A stretch of DNA of 35,778 nucleotides from Actinomycetota bacterium. GTDB lineage: Bacteria > Actinomycetota > Actinomycetes > UBA12327. Shown piece after piece: positions 2,293 to 18,114 of the stretch. Below the pieces are notes generated by a model that ran no database searches, was not told the origin of the DNA, and saw only the letters and a program-made list of their open reading frames with translations. Made by a program: the position numbers and the translations under genes. Position 1 is the stretch's first letter; every line of letters begins with the position of its first letter. The DNA is taken from NCBI GenBank assembly GCA_026392555.1, contig JAPLBW010000028.1:1-35778 (forward strand). The letters run 5' to 3'.

Positions 2293-3120
2293 CTAGTGAC
2301 TCATGACGGGCTCGGTGCGAGCCGGCACCTTGAAGTCAGCTGGGACTTCGTAAACAACCTCGTTGGTCTCAAGTTGTGCACGCAGTAGTTCGGATTGGCG
2401 ATCGCCAACCATGGGGCCAATGAGATCCCAGACGGGGTCAACCTCACGGTTGAAGATCAATCCTCGGTTGGCCGCATCGCGGGCTACAAGGTCAGTGTCC
2501 TGGATGGAGTCCAGAACGTTTTGAGGCAGACCTTCATCTACGAGCTGGAACCACCAGTCAAGATAAGCCTGAACGTTGACATCCATCGCTGGGTAGTTGT
2601 CGGCGTGAACGCGGTAGGCCAACATCCACTGCGACATGATCGACCGTTGGCGTGGAGTCAGCTGAGCCTCGGACAAGCCTGGATGCGATTTGCCGGCCGC
2701 GTAGGTGTCGTTTAAGTGGCCAAACACGTAGTCCATGTAGGTCCGGTGCGAACCAAGATCAACACGTGGGAGCAGATCCAAGTGCATCGCGTAGAACGGG
2801 GCGCTAAAGACCGAGTCAAAGGTCCAGTGTGGAATGGGTGATTCACCATCGGTAAATGCAAAGACCATATGACTGTCAAGCAGGAAGGGAGCAGGGGCAC
2901 CTGGCGGGTGAATCTCGTTGGTGATGGCGTGGTAGACGACCTTCTTCACCAAGTCATCACCAACCAAAACCCGAGTCATGCCCAGATCCTTGTCTCCAGC
3001 AGCGTTGGTAATGGTGTGGAATGGCCCACCATCTGCGCTGTGAAGTTCTTTCATCCCAAGGCGTGCCTTGATCTGTTCTAGCTTGTCGACATTGAGCTTT
3101 TGGGCCCAGCGTTCTGTCAT
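2293..3120 (-). CDS. ferredoxin-dependent bilin reductase (PcyA-like) superfamily protein, subfamily 1 (paralog of 8316..9074)
   Basis: 275 aa with RBS AAGGAA. The core LLDSHMVFAF..PIPHWTFDSV..MHLDLLPRVDL resembles PcyA LDILHCVMFP..LPLFGCDIV..ADLSP, including His and Asp at near-identical spacing. The C-terminal ARDAANRGLIFNREVDPVW..G..ELLRAQL resembles the FDBR tail. It starts 31 bp downstream of the Rieske oxygenase gene. Confidence 0.6.
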   Translation of the reverse strand: MTERWAQKLNVDKLEQIKARLGMKELHSADGGPFHTITNAAGDKDLGMTRVLVGDDLVKKVVYHAITNEIHPPGAPAPFLLDSHMVFAFTDGESPIPHWTFDSVFSAPFYAMHLDLLPRVDLGSHRTYMDYVFGHLNDTYAAGKSHPGLSEAQLTPRQRSIMSQWMLAYRVHADNYPAMDVNVQAYLDWWFQLVDEGLPQNVLDSIQDTDLVARDAANRGLIFNREVDPVWDLIGPMVGDRQSELLRAQLETNEVVYEVPADFKVPARTEPVMSH

Positions 3121-3151
3121 GTGGATTCCTTTTCTTTAGAGCAGAAGGGAC

Positions 3152-4363
3152 TTAGGACTCTTCGATTTCGTAGGCCGTCTGTCCGCCAGCGTTAGTAGCG
3201 GTTTCTACCTTGGATCCACCCAAGATGGCCCTCGAACTGACCTCCTTGTGCACCCAAGCATTCGCAAGTTCTGGATTGTTCTTGCGGGCTGGTGAAGGAA
3301 TAACTACTGCGACGTCGCGCGGTCCATCGCCAACGATCTGGTGCATGTCAATGCCCCAGCCCTGGTCCAGGAGTTCGTTGCGACGACGACGGTAGGTCGT
3401 TTGCAGGATGTCTGAGCGAATGTGCAGTTCATCCGAGAGCTGGTACGGCAAGATTTCCGGACGTTGCTTCTTGAGCACGCTGTCATCCTGCTTGAAGATG
3501 TCTTGGATGCGCTTGTGGGTGTCCTTGTCGGCCCATTCAGCCTTGATGAAGTCGCGCAGGCCGATGTACATCGAGCGCGTGTGGTTCTCGTCCACGGGGA
3601 CGTGGGCATCGATGAGCACCATGTTGCCGATCGGCAGGGGAACGTACAAAACGTTGATGTTAGGCAAGAAGTAACCGGCCTTGACGTGAGTAAGGACGGG
3701 TCCGTCGCCGACTTCCTTCTTGTACTTGAACTTGAACAACTTGCCCCACAGGCCACCCAAGTTCTTCGGCGGAGCCTTCAGCGGGATGGTGGAAAGACCT
3801 GACCAGGGGGTGGTCGTGACGTCAAAGTCGGGGACCGAGGGGTCCTTGATGTTTCCGAATCGACTGCCGTGGACGAACGCTGCGTGGGAGCCGTCCATGC
3901 CGTTTTCCAGGGCGCGCTCGTAGTTCACCTTCCAGTAGTAACTACCTTCAACGCGCTTGAACTGCGGGTCGTCAAGTTCGGGGATGTCGGGGATGGGGGG
4001 GCGTTCTTCTTCGGGAAGGTCACCCAGGAAGGTCCACACATAGCCGTACTTCTCAATGACGGGGTAGGAGTCAACGCGGGCTTTGGTAGGAATGTTGCGC
4101 TGTGGCTGAGCCGGAATTTTGGTGCACTGACCGTCGCCGCCGTACTGCCAACCGTGGTAAGGACACACGATGGAATCTTTGTCATCGGTCAACCAGCCTT
4201 CTGACAAGGGGCCACCGCGGTGGACACACAGGTCGCTTAAGCAATTGACTTGGCCCTTGGAGTCCCGGAACAACACGAAGTACTGTCCCAATGCCTGCAG
4301 CGACAAGGGGCGGTCAACAACGTTGGAGCTGAATTCAACGGGCCACCATAGATTCTTAAGCAC
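3152..4363 (-). CDS. Rieske [2Fe-2S] non-haem iron oxygenase, alpha-subunit type (PaO/Tic55/KshA-like class)
   Basis: 403 aa with a GTG start after AAGGACGG. The Rieske motif is CVHRGGPLSEGWL-x11-CPYHGWQYGGDGQCTKIP. The mononuclear-iron motif is ENGMDGSHAAFVH (E-N-x2-D-x-S-H-x2-F-x-H). Confidence 0.9.
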   Translation of the reverse strand: MLKNLWWPVEFSSNVVDRPLSLQALGQYFVLFRDSKGQVNCLSDLCVHRGGPLSEGWLTDDKDSIVCPYHGWQYGGDGQCTKIPAQPQRNIPTKARVDSYPVIEKYGYVWTFLGDLPEEERPPIPDIPELDDPQFKRVEGSYYWKVNYERALENGMDGSHAAFVHGSRFGNIKDPSVPDFDVTTTPWSGLSTIPLKAPPKNLGGLWGKLFKFKYKKEVGDGPVLTHVKAGYFLPNINVLYVPLPIGNMVLIDAHVPVDENHTRSMYIGLRDFIKAEWADKDTHKRIQDIFKQDDSVLKKQRPEILPYQLSDELHIRSDILQTTYRRRRNELLDQGWGIDMHQIVGDGPRDVAVVIPSPARKNNPELANAWVHKEVSSRAILGGSKVETATNAGGQTAYEIEES

Positions 4364-4552
4364 AGTTTCCGTCCTTCATCACGACAGCCGACAGTGGGAT
4401 TGCTTGCCGGCTATTTGGTTGTGGAACTCACAGGGGAGTTCCGTTGGATCCCCCAGAATTTCCGTTCTCCCATAGTACGGCGGTCCGCTCCCACGCGCGA
4501 CCCCGATAGGTCAGGTCTGGCCACGCCTAGGACCAAAGTCCCATGGCTAGTC

Positions 4553-16655: not shown

Positions 16656-17356
16656 TGGCCTTGACTGACTGCGTTACCTATCCGTTGGGCTTAGCGGCCG
16701 AAGATATCGTGCCGATTGTTCTCGCAGGTGTGGGTTATTGGTACCTATCCAAGCGCGTGCTCAACGATTTTGATGGGTCGCCAGCTGTTGCCCTAGCCAT
16801 GCGCATCGCCGCTGTGCTTTTGGTCGTGTGTTCGTTCTTGGCCGGACCGGTGCGAAAGATCCTGGCCAACGTTGCTGCAGTACCCATTTGCGCGCCGGAT
16901 TTCGATGTCCCCTATTCACAATTCCAGATTCCCTTTGTCGCTGCGCTGGCCCCAGGGTTTGCGATCTTGACTTGGGGTGTGATCTGCACGCTCAAGGGCC
17001 GCAAGGTGGCCTTCTGGCCGGCCAGCGTGCTGTTAGCGCTCGGCGTCGTGGCTGCGGTTGCCGTGGGTGAGCGGACGATCCTGTTTGCAGTAGGTGGGCT
17101 CTGGGCCACGGCCCTGGCCGTTTCGGCCGGCATCCTTGCCGCTCGCCAACGTGATTTTGTGACAACGGGACTCTTTGCCCTCTACGCCTTGGGTACTTTG
17201 GCCCTACCGCCGATCAGCTCTAAAGGGAATGTTTCTGATGTAAATGTTCAGTGGTTGGCGCAAGGGATTAATACCGCCACACAAGGGCTGTTCCTTTATT
17301 CCTGCTATCGACTATTTACACGTTTCCAACGCCAGTCCACGAACACCATCGTCTAG
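16655..17356 (+). CDS. polytopic membrane protein of unknown function
   Basis: 233 aa. Its GTG start overlaps the upstream TAG by 1 nt. About 6-7 hydrophobic segments are visible. Confidence 0.55.
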   Translation: MALTDCVTYPLGLAAEDIVPIVLAGVGYWYLSKRVLNDFDGSPAVALAMRIAAVLLVVCSFLAGPVRKILANVAAVPICAPDFDVPYSQFQIPFVAALAPGFAILTWGVICTLKGRKVAFWPASVLLALGVVAAVAVGERTILFAVGGLWATALAVSAGILAARQRDFVTTGLFALYALGTLALPPISSKGNVSDVNVQWLAQGINTATQGLFLYSCYRLFTRFQRQSTNTIV

Positions 17357-17367
17357 GGAGAACACAC

Positions 17368-18114
17368 ATGGGTGATCAACTCGCTTTCCGCAAGAAGTTT
17401 GGTGTCTTGGCACCGAGTACGAACTCCATCGTCGAGCCGGACTTCAATCGCATGGGTGTTCCCGGCGTTACGCCACTGTTTAGTCGCATTTACATTTATG
17501 ACCAAGACCTGTCAACTGAAGCGCAGATGGAGAAGTTGCGCGTACAGCTCGATGAGTCCTTGGACTACGCCATTGATCTGGTCCGCACGGCCGAAGTTGA
17601 TTACATGGTCATGGGCATGTCGGCCGAGACCTTCTGGGGTGGTGTTGCGGGCAATGACTACTTCAAGGCACGCGTCAAAGAACGTTCGGGCGGGCTTGAT
17701 GTCGCCACCGGTGCGGAAGGGTGTCAAAAGGTCCTCAACAGTTACAACGTCAAGTCCATCTCTGTTGTCACGCCGTATCAAGAGAACGGTGACCGAGAGG
17801 TCATCAATTACTTTGAGGAGATTGGCTTCGAGGTCAAGAAGTTGATCGGCCTCAAGCGTCCAACCGCGGTTTCTATTGCGCACACCACGGAAGACGAACT
17901 TCGCGATGCCCTCATTGAACTCAATGAGAGCGGCGCCGAAGCCATCGTCCAGGTGGGCACGAACTTGTCCATGGTCCGCCTAGCCGCTGAGGCCGAGCGC
18001 TGGTTCCACAAGCCTGTTGTGGCTATTAATGCTGCGACGTGGTGGATGGCCCTGCGTGAGAATGGCATCAACGACAAGCTCTACGGCTTTGGCCGCATGT
18101 TTGAGGACTTCTAA
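17368..18114 (+). CDS. Asp/Glu/hydantoin racemase superfamily protein, maleate cis-trans isomerase / arylmalonate decarboxylase-like
   Basis: 248 aa with RBS AGGGAGA. FGVLAPSTNSIVEPDF at the N-terminus, SISVVTPY, and the second-half VQVGTNLS are typical of maleate isomerase-type proteins. Confidence 0.7.
   Translation: MGDQLAFRKKFGVLAPSTNSIVEPDFNRMGVPGVTPLFSRIYIYDQDLSTEAQMEKLRVQLDESLDYAIDLVRTAEVDYMVMGMSAETFWGGVAGNDYFKARVKERSGGLDVATGAEGCQKVLNSYNVKSISVVTPYQENGDREVINYFEEIGFEVKKLIGLKRPTAVSIAHTTEDELRDALIELNESGAEAIVQVGTNLSMVRLAAEAERWFHKPVVAINAATWWMALRENGINDKLYGFGRMFEDF

What the first reader, a model, noticed from the sequence alone, without database searches (positions are those of the whole stretch)
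2293..18114. Candidate bacterial chlorophyll/tetrapyrrole breakdown cluster built from homologues of the plant PAO/phyllobilin pathway
**Components.** Within about 16 kb I see homologues of several enzyme families that together define chlorophyll breakdown in plants:
- a NOL/NYC1-like SDR (15822-16655);
- a chlorophyllase-like GHSxGG alpha/beta hydrolase (12505-13500);
- a PaO/Tic55-type Rieske oxygenase (3152-4363);
- two RCCR-like proteins (7266-8078, 11662-12486);
- two PcyA-like FDBR-fold proteins (2293-3120, 8316-9074).

They are interleaved with an ACAD-fold flavoprotein, an NTF2-like protein, MFS and TauE transporters and three unknown proteins.

**Gene organisation.** Genes are tightly packed (spacers of 18-31 bp, ATGA and 1-nt overlaps), which indicates co-expression.

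**Why it matters.** To my knowledge no PAO/RCCR-type macrocycle-opening pathway has been established in a heterotrophic bacterium. An actinobacterium feeding on phytoplankton-derived chlorophyll, pheophorbide or bilins would be new biology.

**Gaps.**
- No SGR-type Mg-dechelatase is recognisable.
- No ferredoxin or reductase partner for the Rieske and FDBR enzymes is present.
- No transcription factor is encoded.

The substrate could equally be a bilin, bacteriochlorophyll or haem derivative.
Basis: partly seen in the sequence, partly recalled or inferred. Interest (0 to 1): 0.9.

Follow-up and report, generated by a model that had tools for sequence, protein, structure and literature searches.

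The report
Bacterial tetrapyrrole breakdown gene cluster
A small-genome freshwater actinobacterium carries a gene cluster, conserved across phyla, with four relatives of the plant enzyme that handles ring-opened chlorophyll, alongside an oxygenase, importers and amide- and acid-cleaving enzymes; it most likely imports and dismantles chlorophyll- or bilin-type pigments, which has not been shown biochemically in bacteria.

Summary
The genes are real and the core claim holds. Two genes (7266-8078, 11662-12486) pass Pfam's RCC_reductase threshold and match Arabidopsis RCCR. Two others (2293-3120, 8274-9074) belong to a Pfam-less sister family: hhalign gives 98.8% probability, and the AlphaFold model's best PDB match is RCCR.

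Gene linkage is very strong. In 82 loci from other genomes, the second RCCR-like family lies within 10 kb of the first in 81, the Rieske oxygenase in 78, an unknown double-beta-barrel protein in 78, the alpha/beta hydrolase in 67 and the SDR in 65.

The Rieske protein has a VanA_C domain rather than a PaO domain. The hydrolase is below the chlorophyllase threshold. The SDR is generic.

The cluster is larger than reported (about 1-26261). It includes an ABC importer and amidase- and lyase-type genes, which I infer degrade pyrrole-ring fragments.

I read it as a tetrapyrrole catabolic cluster. Whether the substrate is chlorophyll-derived or a bilin is unresolved. A 2026 preprint already proposes prokaryotic RCCR/PAO homologues but does not analyse this operon.

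The parts
2..238 (+). C-terminal fragment of an aldehyde dehydrogenase, cut by the contig edge
   Evidence: PF00171. A homologue lies within 10 kb in 34 of 82 related loci.
277..558 (-). Dabb (dimeric alpha/beta-barrel) protein
   Evidence: PF07876, 89.8 bits. Present in 31 of 82 loci.
562..1203 (-). Isochorismatase-family amidohydrolase (RutB/BiuH-like)
   Evidence: PF00857, 115 bits. NCBIfam top matches are BiuH and RutB, both below cut-off. A Cys155 motif is present. Homologues occur in the Halieaceae and Roseiflexus clusters.
1313..2221 (+). HMG-CoA-lyase-like C-C lyase
   Evidence: PF00682. NF004283 scores 287.9 bits, above its cut-off of 246. Present in 32 of 82 loci. In other genomes it is fused to a flavin reductase domain.
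2293..3120 (-). RCCR-II paralogue a (g02): FDBR/RCCR fold, no Pfam family
3152..4363 (-). Rieske non-haem-iron oxygenase, alpha3 type, with a VanA_C catalytic domain (g03)
   Evidence: Present in 78 of 82 loci.
4588..5871 (-). ACAD-fold protein (g04), probably the oxygenase component of a two-component flavin monooxygenase
   Evidence: Pfam ACAD N, M and C domains. Best PDB matches are KijD3, nitrososynthase and DszC. In other genomes it sits next to a Flavin_Reduct-HMGL fusion.
6038..6487 (+). Small SnoaL/NTF2-like protein (g05), weak match, found only in close relatives
   Evidence: PF12680, 17.7 bits, below GA. Present in 2 of 82 loci.
6561..7238 (-). Unknown protein (g06) with a Gly/Pro-rich N-terminus, found only in close relatives
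   Evidence: No Pfam hit. Present in 2 of 82 loci. Sequence shown.
7266..8078 (-). RCCR-I paralogue a (g07), RCC_reductase family
8274..9074 (+). RCCR-II paralogue b (g08)
   Evidence: 37.5% identical to g02. Member of alignment A1.
9099..10706 (+). MFS transporter (g09)
   Evidence: PF07690, 197 bits. A 68%-identical homologue lies in related locus L002.
10715..11488 (+). TauE/SafE-family membrane protein (g10)
   Evidence: PF01925, 104 bits. Not conserved in related loci.
11662..12486 (+). RCCR-I paralogue b (g11)
12505..13500 (+). Alpha/beta hydrolase (g12) with a GGHSGGG nucleophile elbow
   Evidence: Present in 67 of 82 loci.
13712..14707 (+). Double beta-barrel protein a (g13), no Pfam family
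   Evidence: 51% identical to g14. Present in 78 of 82 loci.
14848..15825 (+). Double beta-barrel protein b (g14)
   Evidence: AlphaFold2 model with pLDDT 87.8. Best Foldseek matches are BFA1 (5yvf) and DUF3598 (2o62).
15822..16655 (+). Classical SDR (g15), overlapping g14 by ATGA
   Evidence: Present in 65 of 82 loci.
16655..17356 (+). Small multi-pass membrane protein (g16)
   Evidence: Hydrophobic segments. Holds the same position in Aeromicrobium, Dactylosporangium and Micromonospora.
17368..18114 (+). Amdase/EutA-like member of the Asp/Glu-racemase superfamily (g17)
   Evidence: PF17645, 48.1 bits, above GA. PDB matches are arylmalonate decarboxylase and maleate isomerase. It has a single Cys. 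Present in 32 of 82 loci.
18121..19545 (-). Lipoprotein substrate-binding protein (g18) of a branched-chain-type ABC importer
   Evidence: Peripla_BP_6, 27.7 bits, below GA 31.7. The N-terminal signal ends in Cys. Homologues lie in L001 and L002.
19567..26261 (-). ABC importer genes: permease-ATPase fusion (19567-21954), permease (21891-22394), membrane-domain-ATPase fusion (22391-24622) and a second binding protein (24594-26261)
   Evidence: The permease homologue is adjacent in 26 of 82 loci.
6508..6546 (-). Strong intrinsic-terminator hairpin (18-bp stem) between convergent units
18130..18176 (.). Hairpin between the convergent Amdase-like and binding-protein genes

Best explanation
**What it is.** I read this as a catabolic cluster for an imported tetrapyrrole pigment. 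All pathway steps below are inferred, not shown.

**Import.** A branched-chain-type ABC system with two lipoprotein binding proteins takes up the substrate.

**Upper pathway.**
- It consists of a Rieske monooxygenase, two distinct families of FDBR/RCCR-fold proteins (RCCR-I and RCCR-II, each duplicated here), a double-beta-barrel protein, an alpha/beta hydrolase and an SDR.
- I infer that the FDBR-fold proteins reduce methine-bridge or ring C=C bonds of a linear (ring-opened) tetrapyrrole using a housekeeping ferredoxin, as all characterised relatives do.
- I infer that the oxygenases (Rieske, ACAD-fold and FAD_binding_3) either open the macrocycle or cut the reduced bridges.

**Lower pathway.**
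- Some of these genes are on other short contigs of this fragmented genome and are collinear in other genomes.
- It would hydrolyse pyrrolinone or maleimide-type fragments using amidases (isochorismatase, CN_hydrolase, Amidohydro_1).
- It would then convert the resulting methyl-substituted C4-dicarboxylates with PrpD-like, PrpB-like, HMG-CoA-lyase-like, CoA-transferase and aldehyde dehydrogenase enzymes. The products would be pyruvate, acyl-CoA and ammonium.

**Substrate.** Within this reading I give about 0.35 to a chlorophyll-derived substrate (pheophorbide opened by the Rieske enzyme, or RCC/phyllobilin-type catabolites). I give about 0.3 to haem- or phycobilin-derived bilins.
For: **Shown by tools**
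- The window holds four FDBR/RCCR-fold genes. The bacterial RCCR-I profile matches Arabidopsis RCCR over nearly its full length (E 5e-21). The Asp that aligns with AtRCCR D291 is invariant.
- In a tree, algal RCCR-like proteins (Coccomyxa, Chlorella, Guillardia) fall on the RCCR-I side of a 100/99-supported split from RCCR-II.
- Linkage in 82 loci: RCCR-II 81, Rieske 78, double barrel 78, hydrolase 67, SDR 65. The usual order is RCCR-I-(hydrolase)-Rieske-RCCR-II-barrel-SDR-membrane-Amdase.
- Aeromicrobium and Dactylosporangium have 16-gene collinear operons. These add an IclR or GntR regulator, a flavin reductase-HMGL fusion, the ACAD-fold protein, two aldehyde dehydrogenases, a PrpB-like lyase, FAD_binding_3 and CN_hydrolase.
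- Frequent further neighbours are CN_hydrolase (about 59 of 83 loci), IclR (46), MmgE/PrpD (34), CoA-transferase III (29), Amidohydro_1 (24) and Cyclase (17).
- Variants occur in a cyanobacterium, in Halieaceae and in Roseiflexus.
- The window's own genome carries the accessory genes on contigs C24, C42, C163, C53 and C136.
- An uptake system and catabolic-type regulators are present. No haem oxygenase, phytochrome or globin gene was recognised in the window or in the loci whose genes were listed.

**From established knowledge**
- Every characterised FDBR-fold enzyme (FDBRs, RCCR, HemF) acts on a tetrapyrrole.
- The only known partner of RCCR is a Rieske oxygenase (PAO).
- Isochorismatase-type amidases and Asp/Glu-racemase-type isomerases finish the nicotinate pathway (NicF, NicE).
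- PrpD and PrpB handle 2-methyl-cis-aconitate and 2-methylisocitrate, which are one-carbon-shorter analogues of the acid expected from a methyl/propionate pyrrole ring.
Against: - There are no biochemical data for any member of this cluster.
- No ferredoxin or Rieske reductase is encoded in the cluster.
- AtRCCR Glu154 aligns with Ala in RCCR-I, which has an invariant His two residues upstream instead. The identity of that catalytic residue comes from my memory of Sugishima et al. 2010.
- The Rieske protein is not PaO-type.
- The Halieaceae variant lacks the Rieske and barrel genes, and the Roseiflexus variant lacks RCCR-I. No single enzyme pair is therefore universal.
- Three further FDBR-fold paralogues of this genome lie in housekeeping contexts, so the fold is not restricted to this pathway.
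- g17 lacks the two-Cys arrangement of maleate isomerase.
- All lower-pathway families are generic and would suit other N-heterocycles.
Confidence: 0.65

Rival explanations
1. This is the first reader's specific version, and a special case of my best explanation. The cluster would be a bacterial PAO/phyllobilin pathway. The hydrolase removes phytol (or the C13(2) methyl ester), the Rieske enzyme opens the pheophorbide macrocycle as PAO does, and the RCCR-like proteins reduce the red catabolite.
For: - The Rieske gene is adjacent to RCCR-like genes in 78 of 82 loci, and forms a bare Rieske-RCCR-II-RCCR-I trio in a cyanobacterium. This mirrors the only known RCCR partnership.
- Eukaryotic RCCRs group with RCCR-I.
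- No haem oxygenase was found in the genome, so another enzyme would be needed to open a ring.
- Carriers live where chlorophyll is abundant: leaf-litter and soil actinomycetes, freshwater plankton, sponge symbionts and mats.
- The preprint reports that a Shewanella acanthi mutant lacking PPH and CLH homologues degraded chlorophyll more slowly.
Against: - The Rieske protein has no PaO domain and is no nearer to PaO-type proteins than to SxtT, NdmA or DdmC.
- The hydrolase is below the chlorophyllase threshold.
- No Mg-dechelatase was found, though that search had no working control.
- AtRCCR Glu154 is not conserved.
- The Halieaceae cluster has no Rieske gene.
- The preprint shows no ring opening.
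- I could not confirm that the Shewanella cluster is homologous to this one.
Confidence: 0.3
2. This is bilin salvage, also a special case of my best explanation. The substrate would be an already linear tetrapyrrole from haem or phycobiliproteins, such as biliverdin, phycocyanobilin, phycoerythrobilin or urobilin-type compounds. The FDBR-fold proteins saturate the bridges, and the oxygenases then cut out the rings.
For: - g11 scores as high on Fe_bilin_red as on RCC_reductase, and its best PDB match is phytochromobilin synthase.
- The RCCR-I and RCCR-II families share an invariant His on the central strand plus a C-terminal Asp, which resembles FDBR proton-donor pairs (this comparison is my inference).
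- An anionic dicarboxylate suits an ABC importer with binding proteins.
- Freshwater and sponge habitats are rich in phycobiliprotein-bearing cyanobacteria.
- The Halieaceae variant works without a Rieske gene.
Against: - Soil actinomycetes, a large share of the carriers, see few phycobilins.
- The hydrolase, SDR and Rieske enzymes have no obvious role on a bilin.
- Sequence and fold are nearest to RCCR, not to FDBRs.
Confidence: 0.3
3. The cluster degrades a non-tetrapyrrole compound, such as another N-heterocycle, an oligopyrrole like prodigiosin, or an aromatic acid. The FDBR-fold proteins would have been recruited as binding proteins or as enzymes of a new type.
For: - The lower-pathway families (RutB-like, flavin reductase plus flavin monooxygenase, CN_hydrolase, aldehyde dehydrogenases, VanA-type Rieske) are typical of many heterocycle and aromatic pathways.
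- Three other FDBR-fold paralogues in this genome have housekeeping neighbours.
- One RCCR catalytic residue is replaced.
Against: - No FDBR-fold protein is known to act on anything but a tetrapyrrole.
- Two separate FDBR-fold families are co-retained across four phyla.
- The match to AtRCCR covers the full length.
Confidence: 0.12
4. The cluster makes a bilin chromophore or pigment rather than degrading one.
For: FDBRs are biosynthetic in phototrophs, and pre-PcyA clusters exist in heterotrophs (PMC10151467).
Against: - No haem oxygenase, phytochrome, globin or lyase gene was recognised in the window or in the listed neighbourhoods.
- Importers, IclR/GntR regulators, amidases and C-C lyases dominate the neighbourhood.
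Confidence: 0.03

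Closest known systems
Plant PAO/RCCR step of the PAO/phyllobilin pathway (Arabidopsis ACD1/PAO and ACD2/RCCR)
   Same: - g07 and g11 pass the RCC_reductase Pfam model, and the family profile aligns with AtRCCR over about 230 residues (E 5e-21).
- The Asp equivalent to D291 is invariant.
- A Rieske oxygenase is the constant neighbour.
- Algal RCCRs group with RCCR-I.
   Different: - The Rieske protein has a VanA_C domain rather than a PaO domain.
- The Glu154 equivalent is Ala.
- A second, Pfam-less FDBR-fold family is always present.
- The genes sit in a catabolic operon with importers and ring-fragment enzymes. 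Plants have a detoxification route that ends in stored phyllobilins.
Ferredoxin-dependent bilin reductases (PcyA, PebA/B, HY2, PUBS) and the pre-PcyA clusters of heterotrophic bacteria (Rockwell et al. 2023, PMC10151467)
   Same: - The alpha/beta/alpha fold is the same (Foldseek E 5e-7 to 1e-5).
- They occur in non-photosynthetic bacteria.
- g11 scores just below the Fe_bilin_red threshold.
   Different: - There is no haem oxygenase, globin, V4R or Fe-S partner gene.
- These proteins lie on the RCCR side, which FDBR phylogenies use as the outgroup.
- The context is catabolic, not biosynthetic.
Structure-predicted prokaryotic chlorophyll catabolic enzymes ('SH-CCEs'; Aliyu et al., bioRxiv 10.64898/2026.03.19.712979)
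   Same: - The idea is the same: RCCR, PAO and hydrolase homologues in heterotrophs.
- Actinomycetota is the largest group.
- The preprint mentions an 11-kb cluster in Shewanella acanthi.
   Different: - The preprint counts genome-wide co-occurrence of four families and does not analyse operons.
- It does not describe the RCCR-II family, the double-barrel protein or the ring-fragment genes.
- It shows only chlorophyll to pheophytin and pheophorbide conversion.
Ring-fragment pathways: nicotinate (NicC/D/F/E), pyrimidine Rut (RutA/B/F), cyclic-imide metabolism, the methylcitrate cycle (PrpD/PrpB) and itaconate degradation (my own knowledge)
   Same: The enzyme families co-occur here: FAD_binding_3, alpha/beta hydrolase, isochorismatase amidase, Asp/Glu-racemase-type protein, flavin reductase plus flavin monooxygenase, Amidohydro_1, PrpD-like, PrpB-like, CoA-transferase III and an HMG/citramalyl-CoA-type lyase.
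   Different: - None reaches an NCBIfam equivalog cut-off except the broad HMG-CoA lyase subfamily.
- g17 lacks the maleate isomerase Cys pair.
- The substrates are inferred only.
Gut bilirubin reductase BilR (Hall et al. 2024; my own knowledge)
   Same: It is a bacterial enzyme that reduces bridge double bonds of a bilin.
   Different: BilR is an Old-Yellow-Enzyme-type flavoprotein, unrelated in fold. It stops at urobilinogen, and no mineralisation genes accompany it.

Membership tests
RCCR (Pfam PF06405) | Score above the Pfam gathering threshold | tested here: met
   g07 scores 47.8 bits and g11 27.1 bits against GA 24.9. g02 and g08 have no hit.
RCCR (Pfam PF06405) | Full-length similarity to a solved RCCR and the FDBR-type fold | tested here: met
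   The A2 profile matches 3agb at E 5e-21 over positions 28-256. For the g02 model, the top Foldseek hits are 3agb and 2zxk with TM about 0.7. g07 itself was not modelled.
RCCR (Pfam PF06405) | Acidic residues Glu154 and Asp291 of AtRCCR (Sugishima et al. 2010, recalled from memory) | tested here: inconclusive
   The D291 equivalent is invariant (D235 of g07, RDPAN motif). E154 aligns with Ala112, and an invariant His108 lies nearby. Numbering was derived from the F218V mutant pair.
RCCR (Pfam PF06405) | Ferredoxin-dependent reduction of red chlorophyll catabolite | not testable with these tools
   This needs an enzyme assay.
FDBR (Pfam PF05996) | Score above the Pfam gathering threshold | tested here: not met
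   g11 scores 29.3 bits against GA 31. g07, g02 and g08 have no hit.
PaO/Tic55-type Rieske oxygenases | Rieske 2Fe-2S and mononuclear-iron motifs | tested here: met
   CVH-x17-CPYH at residue 46 and ENGMDGSHAAFVH at residue 153.
PaO/Tic55-type Rieske oxygenases | PaO domain (PF08417) | tested here: not met
   g03 and the whole 86%-complete genome have no hit, while the control search detected Synechococcus elongatus.
PaO/Tic55-type Rieske oxygenases | Closer to PaO-domain proteins than to other alpha3 Rieske oxygenases | tested here: not met
   phmmer gives 34-84 bits against eight cyanobacterial PaO-domain proteins. It gives SxtT 101, NdmA 95, DdmC 86 and KshA 74 bits. No tree with named references could be built.
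Chlorophyllase (PF07224) | Score above the gathering threshold; Ser nucleophile elbow | tested here: not met
   The score is 15.7 bits against GA 26, over 22 residues only. The GHSGG elbow is present but generic. No chlorophyllase appears among the PDB hits.
NYC1/NOL chlorophyll b reductase clade of SDRs | Classical SDR motifs | tested here: met
   TGGTRGIG, NNAG and YGATK are present.
NYC1/NOL chlorophyll b reductase clade of SDRs | Phylogenetic placement with NYC1/NOL | not tested
   No NYC1/NOL reference sequence was obtainable. The best NCBIfam matches are generic (glucose dehydrogenase, FabG) and far below cut-off.
Maleate isomerase / arylmalonate decarboxylase (PF17645) | Pfam threshold; catalytic Cys pair (isomerase) or single Cys near residue 188 (decarboxylase) | tested here: inconclusive
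   The score is 48.1 bits, above GA 25.9. The only Cys is C119. The nearest NCBIfam match is EutA, below cut-off.

The most novel reading that the evidence does not exclude
This would be a complete bacterial route for mineralising chlorophyll. A Rieske oxygenase unrelated to the PaO clade opens the pheophorbide macrocycle. Two families of RCCR-like reductases process the linear product. A dedicated set of amidases and lyases then converts all four pyrrole rings into central metabolites and ammonium. [quoted passage not shown]
Probability: 0.3. Interest if true: 0.9.

Novelty: new variant of a known kind. Interest (0 to 1): 0.75.

Why it matters
**The open question.** Roughly a billion tonnes of chlorophyll, plus large amounts of phycobilins and haem, turn over each year. 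No bacterial pathway that breaks a tetrapyrrole down to central metabolites has been described. My full-text searches found only the 2026 preprint's in-silico proposal.

**What this cluster offers**
- It defines a compact, conserved and testable gene set.
- Cultured carriers are available, including Aeromicrobium wangtongii, Dactylosporangium sucinum, Actinoplanes, Micromonospora and Halioglobus.
- It includes a previously unnamed sister family of RCCR and an unknown double-barrel protein that is almost always linked to it.

**Ecological and evolutionary weight**
- A genome of about 1.5-1.7 Mb devotes more than 25 genes and duplicated core enzymes to this cluster, which suggests it matters ecologically.
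- The RCC_reductase-related set is rare: 444 clusters among 1.84 billion representatives.
- Eukaryotic RCCRs group with RCCR-I, so the cluster may also bear on where plant RCCR came from.

Tried and rejected
- **Riboswitch or other RNA element in the intergenic gaps.** Rfam found only four tRNAs at 33092-34424.
- **Shared operator repeats.** No convincing repeat family was found, and promoter-like sites were below the shuffled expectation.
- **Haem oxygenase, PaO and Staygreen in the own genome.** None was found. The Staygreen control was silent, so that negative is uninformative.
- **Rosetta-stone fusions of RCCR domains.** The long hits are read-through gene calls (for example aldehyde dehydrogenase tail plus RCCR) or true plant RCCRs, so they say nothing about function.
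- **Unbiased clustering of stop-to-stop ORFs in 83 loci.** Shadow ORFs in high-GC genomes blurred the result. I used it only to pick frequent extra neighbours for Pfam.
- **Linking to the Shewanella acanthi experiment.** The gammaproteobacterial RCCR search listed Halioglobus, Parahaliea, Paraferrimonas and Temperatibacter. Shewanella was not among the 120 rows shown.
- **Naming the organism.** Only 'freshwater metagenome' MAGs and 'actinobacterium acAMD-2' appear as close relatives. A literature look-up of acAMD added nothing.
- **Bilin lyase (CpcS/T) or hydratase fold for the double-barrel protein.** CpcS/T-type lyases are not among the 50 hits listed. AttH and kievitone hydratase align poorly (TM about 0.17).
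- **Rejected idea.** g17 is not a canonical maleate isomerase, because it has only one Cys.

Full report
**1. What is in the window**

ORF calling and Pfam, NCBIfam and PDB searches give the following map.

| Coordinates | Strand | Gene |
|---|---|---|
| 2-238 | + | aldehyde dehydrogenase tail |
| 277-558 | - | Dabb |
| 562-1203 | - | isochorismatase-type amidohydrolase |
| 1313-2221 | + | HMG-CoA-lyase-like |
| 2293-3120 | - | g02 |
| 3152-4363 | - | Rieske oxygenase g03 |
| 4588-5871 | - | ACAD-fold g04 |
| 6038-6487 | + | weak SnoaL-like g05 |
| 6561-7238 | - | unknown g06 |
| 7266-8078 | - | g07 |
| 8274-9074 | + | g08 |
| 9099-10706 | + | MFS |
| 10715-11488 | + | TauE |
| 11662-12486 | + | g11 |
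| 12505-13500 | + | alpha/beta hydrolase g12 |
| 13712-14707 | + | g13 |
| 14848-15825 | + | g14 |
| 15822-16655 | + | SDR |
| 16655-17356 | + | membrane protein g16 |
| 17368-18114 | + | Amdase-family g17 |
| 18121-26261 | - | branched-chain-type ABC importer with two binding proteins |

The genes form three paralogous pairs:
- g07 and g11, 38.6% identical.
- g02 and g08, 37.5% identical.
- g13 and g14, 51% identical.

The ATGA overlap at 15822-15825, the 1-nt overlap at 16655 and spacers of 8-31 bp are real. Gaps of 140-224 bp also exist. Hairpins at 6508-6546 and 18130-18176 separate convergent units.

**2. The four FDBR/RCCR-fold genes**

- g07 passes PF06405 (47.8 bits, GA 24.9) and finds Arabidopsis RCCR in the PDB (E 2.5e-9).
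- g11 passes PF06405 (27.1 bits) and narrowly misses Fe_bilin_red (29.3 bits, GA 31).
- A profile of 37 homologues (A2) aligns with AtRCCR over positions 28-256 of 269 at E 5e-21.
- I derived residue numbering from the F218V mutant pair. With it, AtRCCR Asp291 aligns with the invariant Asp235 of g07 (RDPAN motif). AtRCCR Glu154 aligns with Ala112, and an invariant His108 sits two residues upstream. That these two acidic residues are the catalytic ones is my recollection of Sugishima et al. 2010 and could not be checked.
- g02 and g08 have no Pfam family. Their family (263 hits; alignment A1) matches A2 at hhalign probability 98.8% and E 1.4e-16 over 230 columns.
- The AlphaFold2 model of g02 (pLDDT 93.6, pTM 0.91) hits AtRCCR first (E 3e-10, TM 0.66-0.73). 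HY2, PebB, PcyA and PebA follow, and HemF more weakly.

I call the two families RCCR-I and RCCR-II.

The RCC_reductase-related set recovered by the RCCR-I profile is small: 444 clusters at 50% identity among 1.84 billion representatives.

I built a tree of 43 sequences. A 100/99-supported split separates RCCR-II from a clade that holds bacterial RCCR-I together with algal RCCR-like proteins (Coccomyxa, Chlorella, Guillardia; named). Caveats are the long eukaryotic branches, the midpoint root and the absence of an FDBR outgroup.

**3. The other labels**

- **Rieske (g03).** The cluster-binding and mononuclear-iron motifs are present. The catalytic domain is VanA_C (73 bits) and there is no PaO domain. 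PF08417 is absent from the whole 86%-complete genome, while the control found it in Synechococcus elongatus. Against eight cyanobacterial PaO-domain proteins, g03 scores 34-84 bits (27-30% identity over about 200 residues). That is no better than against SxtT (101), NdmA (95), DdmC (86) or KshA (74). It is therefore a distinct alpha3 Rieske family. It is neither PaO-type nor firmly in a KshA or phthalate clade.
- **Hydrolase (g12).** It has a GGHSGGG elbow but scores 15.7 bits on Chlorophyllase (GA 26). Its PDB matches are only weak polyester-hydrolase hits.
- **SDR.** It has classical motifs and generic matches. NYC1/NOL placement could not be tested.
- **g04.** It resembles group-D flavin monooxygenases (KijD3, nitrososynthase, DszC).
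- **g17.** It passes PF17645 but has a single Cys.
- **g14.** It folds as two tandem beta-barrels (pLDDT 87.8). The best matches are BFA1 and DUF3598 from Nostoc.

**4. Conservation**

A scan of one genome per species found RCCR-I relatives in 424 places, and 80 loci were fetched. They come from these groups:
- sponge-associated and marine Acidimicrobiia (Poriferisocius, Aldehydirespiratoraceae, Sva0996);
- soil actinomycetes (Actinoplanes, Micromonospora, Streptomyces, Nocardia).

Within 10 kb of RCCR-I in 82 loci:

| Neighbour | Loci (of 82) |
|---|---|
| RCCR-II | 81 |
| Rieske | 78 |
| double barrel | 78 |
| hydrolase | 67 |
| SDR | 65 |
| aldehyde dehydrogenase | 34 |
| HMGL | 32 |
| Amdase | 32 |
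| Dabb | 31 |
| ABC permease | 26 |
| ACAD | 24 |

Nearly all loci have single copies, in the order RCCR-I-(hydrolase)-Rieske-RCCR-II-barrel-SDR-membrane-Amdase. Only the window's lineage shows duplications.

Dactylosporangium sucinum and Aeromicrobium wangtongii have collinear operons. Their order is: regulator, flavin reductase-HMGL fusion, ACAD-fold, aldehyde dehydrogenase, PrpB-like lyase, FAD_binding_3, aldehyde dehydrogenase, Dabb, CN_hydrolase, then the core.

Further frequent neighbours are CN_hydrolase, IclR, MmgE/PrpD, CoA-transferase III, Amidohydro_1 and Cyclase.

Variants occur outside the phylum:
- a bare Rieske-RCCR-II-RCCR-I trio in a Xenococcaceae cyanobacterium that has no PaO domain;
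- a Halieaceae cluster without the Rieske and barrel genes;
- a Roseiflexus cluster without RCCR-I.

One RCCR-I homologue (Nonomuraea) is a singleton.

**5. The host genome**

- The window is contig C217 of a 1.5-Mb, 252-contig, 86%-complete genome.
- Its closest relatives are freshwater Actinobacteria MAGs such as acAMD-2.
- The accessory genes lie on other short contigs: C42 (FAD_binding_3 and CN_hydrolase), C163 (flavin reductase-HMGL and aldehyde dehydrogenase), C53, C136 and C24.
- C24 carries a second Amdase-like gene, a PrpB-like gene, an aldehyde dehydrogenase and Dabb. It overlaps the window's left end (98% over 101 nt) and is either the continuation or a strain variant.
- Three more FDBR-fold genes sit in housekeeping contexts.
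- No haem oxygenase was found.

**6. Interpretation**

*Shown.* Two FDBR-fold families are tightly and widely linked to a Rieske oxygenase, an unknown double-barrel protein, a hydrolase and an SDR. They are embedded in importer, regulator, amidase and lyase genes.

*Inferred.* The substrate is a tetrapyrrole, because every characterised member of the fold acts on one. The role is catabolic, because of the importers, the IclR/GntR regulators, the C-N hydrolases and C-C lyases, and the absence of chromophore acceptors.

*Inferred chemistry.*
- Reductive saturation of bridges is followed by oxygenolytic release of pyrrolinone or maleimide units.
- Imide and amide hydrolysis follows.
- The methyl/propionate- and methyl/vinyl-substituted maleates are then hydrated and cleaved by PrpD/PrpB-like and HMG-CoA-lyase-like enzymes.
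- The triacid expected from a methyl/propionate ring is the one-carbon homologue of 2-methyl-cis-aconitate. This would explain the PrpD- and PrpB-type genes.

*Substrate.* It remains open.
- The Rieske-RCCR pairing, the missing haem oxygenase and the soil and leaf-litter carriers favour chlorophyll derivatives.
- The non-PaO Rieske protein, the lost Glu154, the FDBR-like scores of g11 and the Rieske-less Halieaceae variant favour bilins.

**7. Literature**

- FDBR phylogenies use 'RCCRs and related sequences' as the outgroup and describe pre-PcyA clusters with haem oxygenase and globins in heterotrophs (PMC10151467).
- The preprint 10.64898/2026.03.19.712979 predicts RCCR, PAO and hydrolase structural homologues in 469 species. 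Actinomycetota is the largest group. It shows slower chlorophyll loss in a Shewanella acanthi double hydrolase mutant. It shows no ring opening and contains no operon analysis.
- Searches for bilin or phyllobilin catabolism in bacteria found nothing else.

**8. Verdict**

- Its central idea, a bacterial tetrapyrrole-breakdown cluster built around RCCR homologues, is well supported genomically.
- The specific equation with the plant PAO/phyllobilin pathway is only partly supported.
- The concept is no longer unpublished, but the operon, the RCCR-II family, the double-barrel protein and the ring-fragment module are not described in anything I could find.

Noticed in passing
G000 contigs C198:3098-3916(+), C241:14644-15366(-), C130:5543-6280(+): Three further FDBR/RCCR-fold paralogues of this small genome lie in housekeeping neighbourhoods. 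One is beside FemAB, a racemase-like gene and glycosyltransferases. One is beside CopC, CopD-CtaG and a HemN/HemW-like radical SAM gene. One lies between trigger factor/ClpP/ClpX and Fpg. Their role is unknown. In the tree, the C241 and C130 copies branch deep in the RCCR-II clade.
   Followed up: partly
G000 contig C24 (2986 bp) versus window 287-387: C24 matches the window's left end (98% over 101 nt; aldehyde dehydrogenase tail 93% and Dabb 94% identical at protein level). It carries a PrpB-like lyase and a second Amdase-like gene. It is either the continuation of the cluster or a co-assembled strain variant.
   Followed up: partly
window 26394-31910: This block encodes surface proteins with WxL and WxL-interacting (peptidoglycan-binding) domains, which are better known from Firmicutes. 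It also has a weak neocarzinostatin-like match and an alpha/beta hydrolase. It is not conserved next to the cluster in other genomes.
   Followed up: no
window 33092-34424: Four tRNA genes lie here, one on the minus strand and three on the plus strand, downstream of Sua5/TsaC and a Glyoxalase_3 gene. They mark the end of the catabolic region.
   Followed up: no
window 34431-35777: An open-ended ORF gives a weak match to animal haem peroxidase (PF03098, 26.2 bits, just above GA 25).
   Followed up: no
window 19567-24622: The ABC importer has unusual fusions: a permease-ATPase protein of 795 aa, and a 743-aa protein that joins an MFS-like membrane domain to an ABC ATPase.
   Followed up: no
L092 (Halieaceae) and L093 (Roseiflexus): The module composition differs between phyla. 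Halieaceae keep RCCR-I, RCCR-II, the SDR and the lower pathway but have no Rieske or double-barrel gene. Roseiflexus keeps the hydrolase, Rieske, RCCR-II and double barrel but has no RCCR-I nearby.
   Followed up: partly
window 6561-7238 and 6038-6487: g06 has a Gly/Pro-rich low-complexity N-terminus. Together with the SnoaL-like g05 it occurs only in the closest relatives (2 of 82 loci), so both are lineage-specific additions.
   Followed up: no
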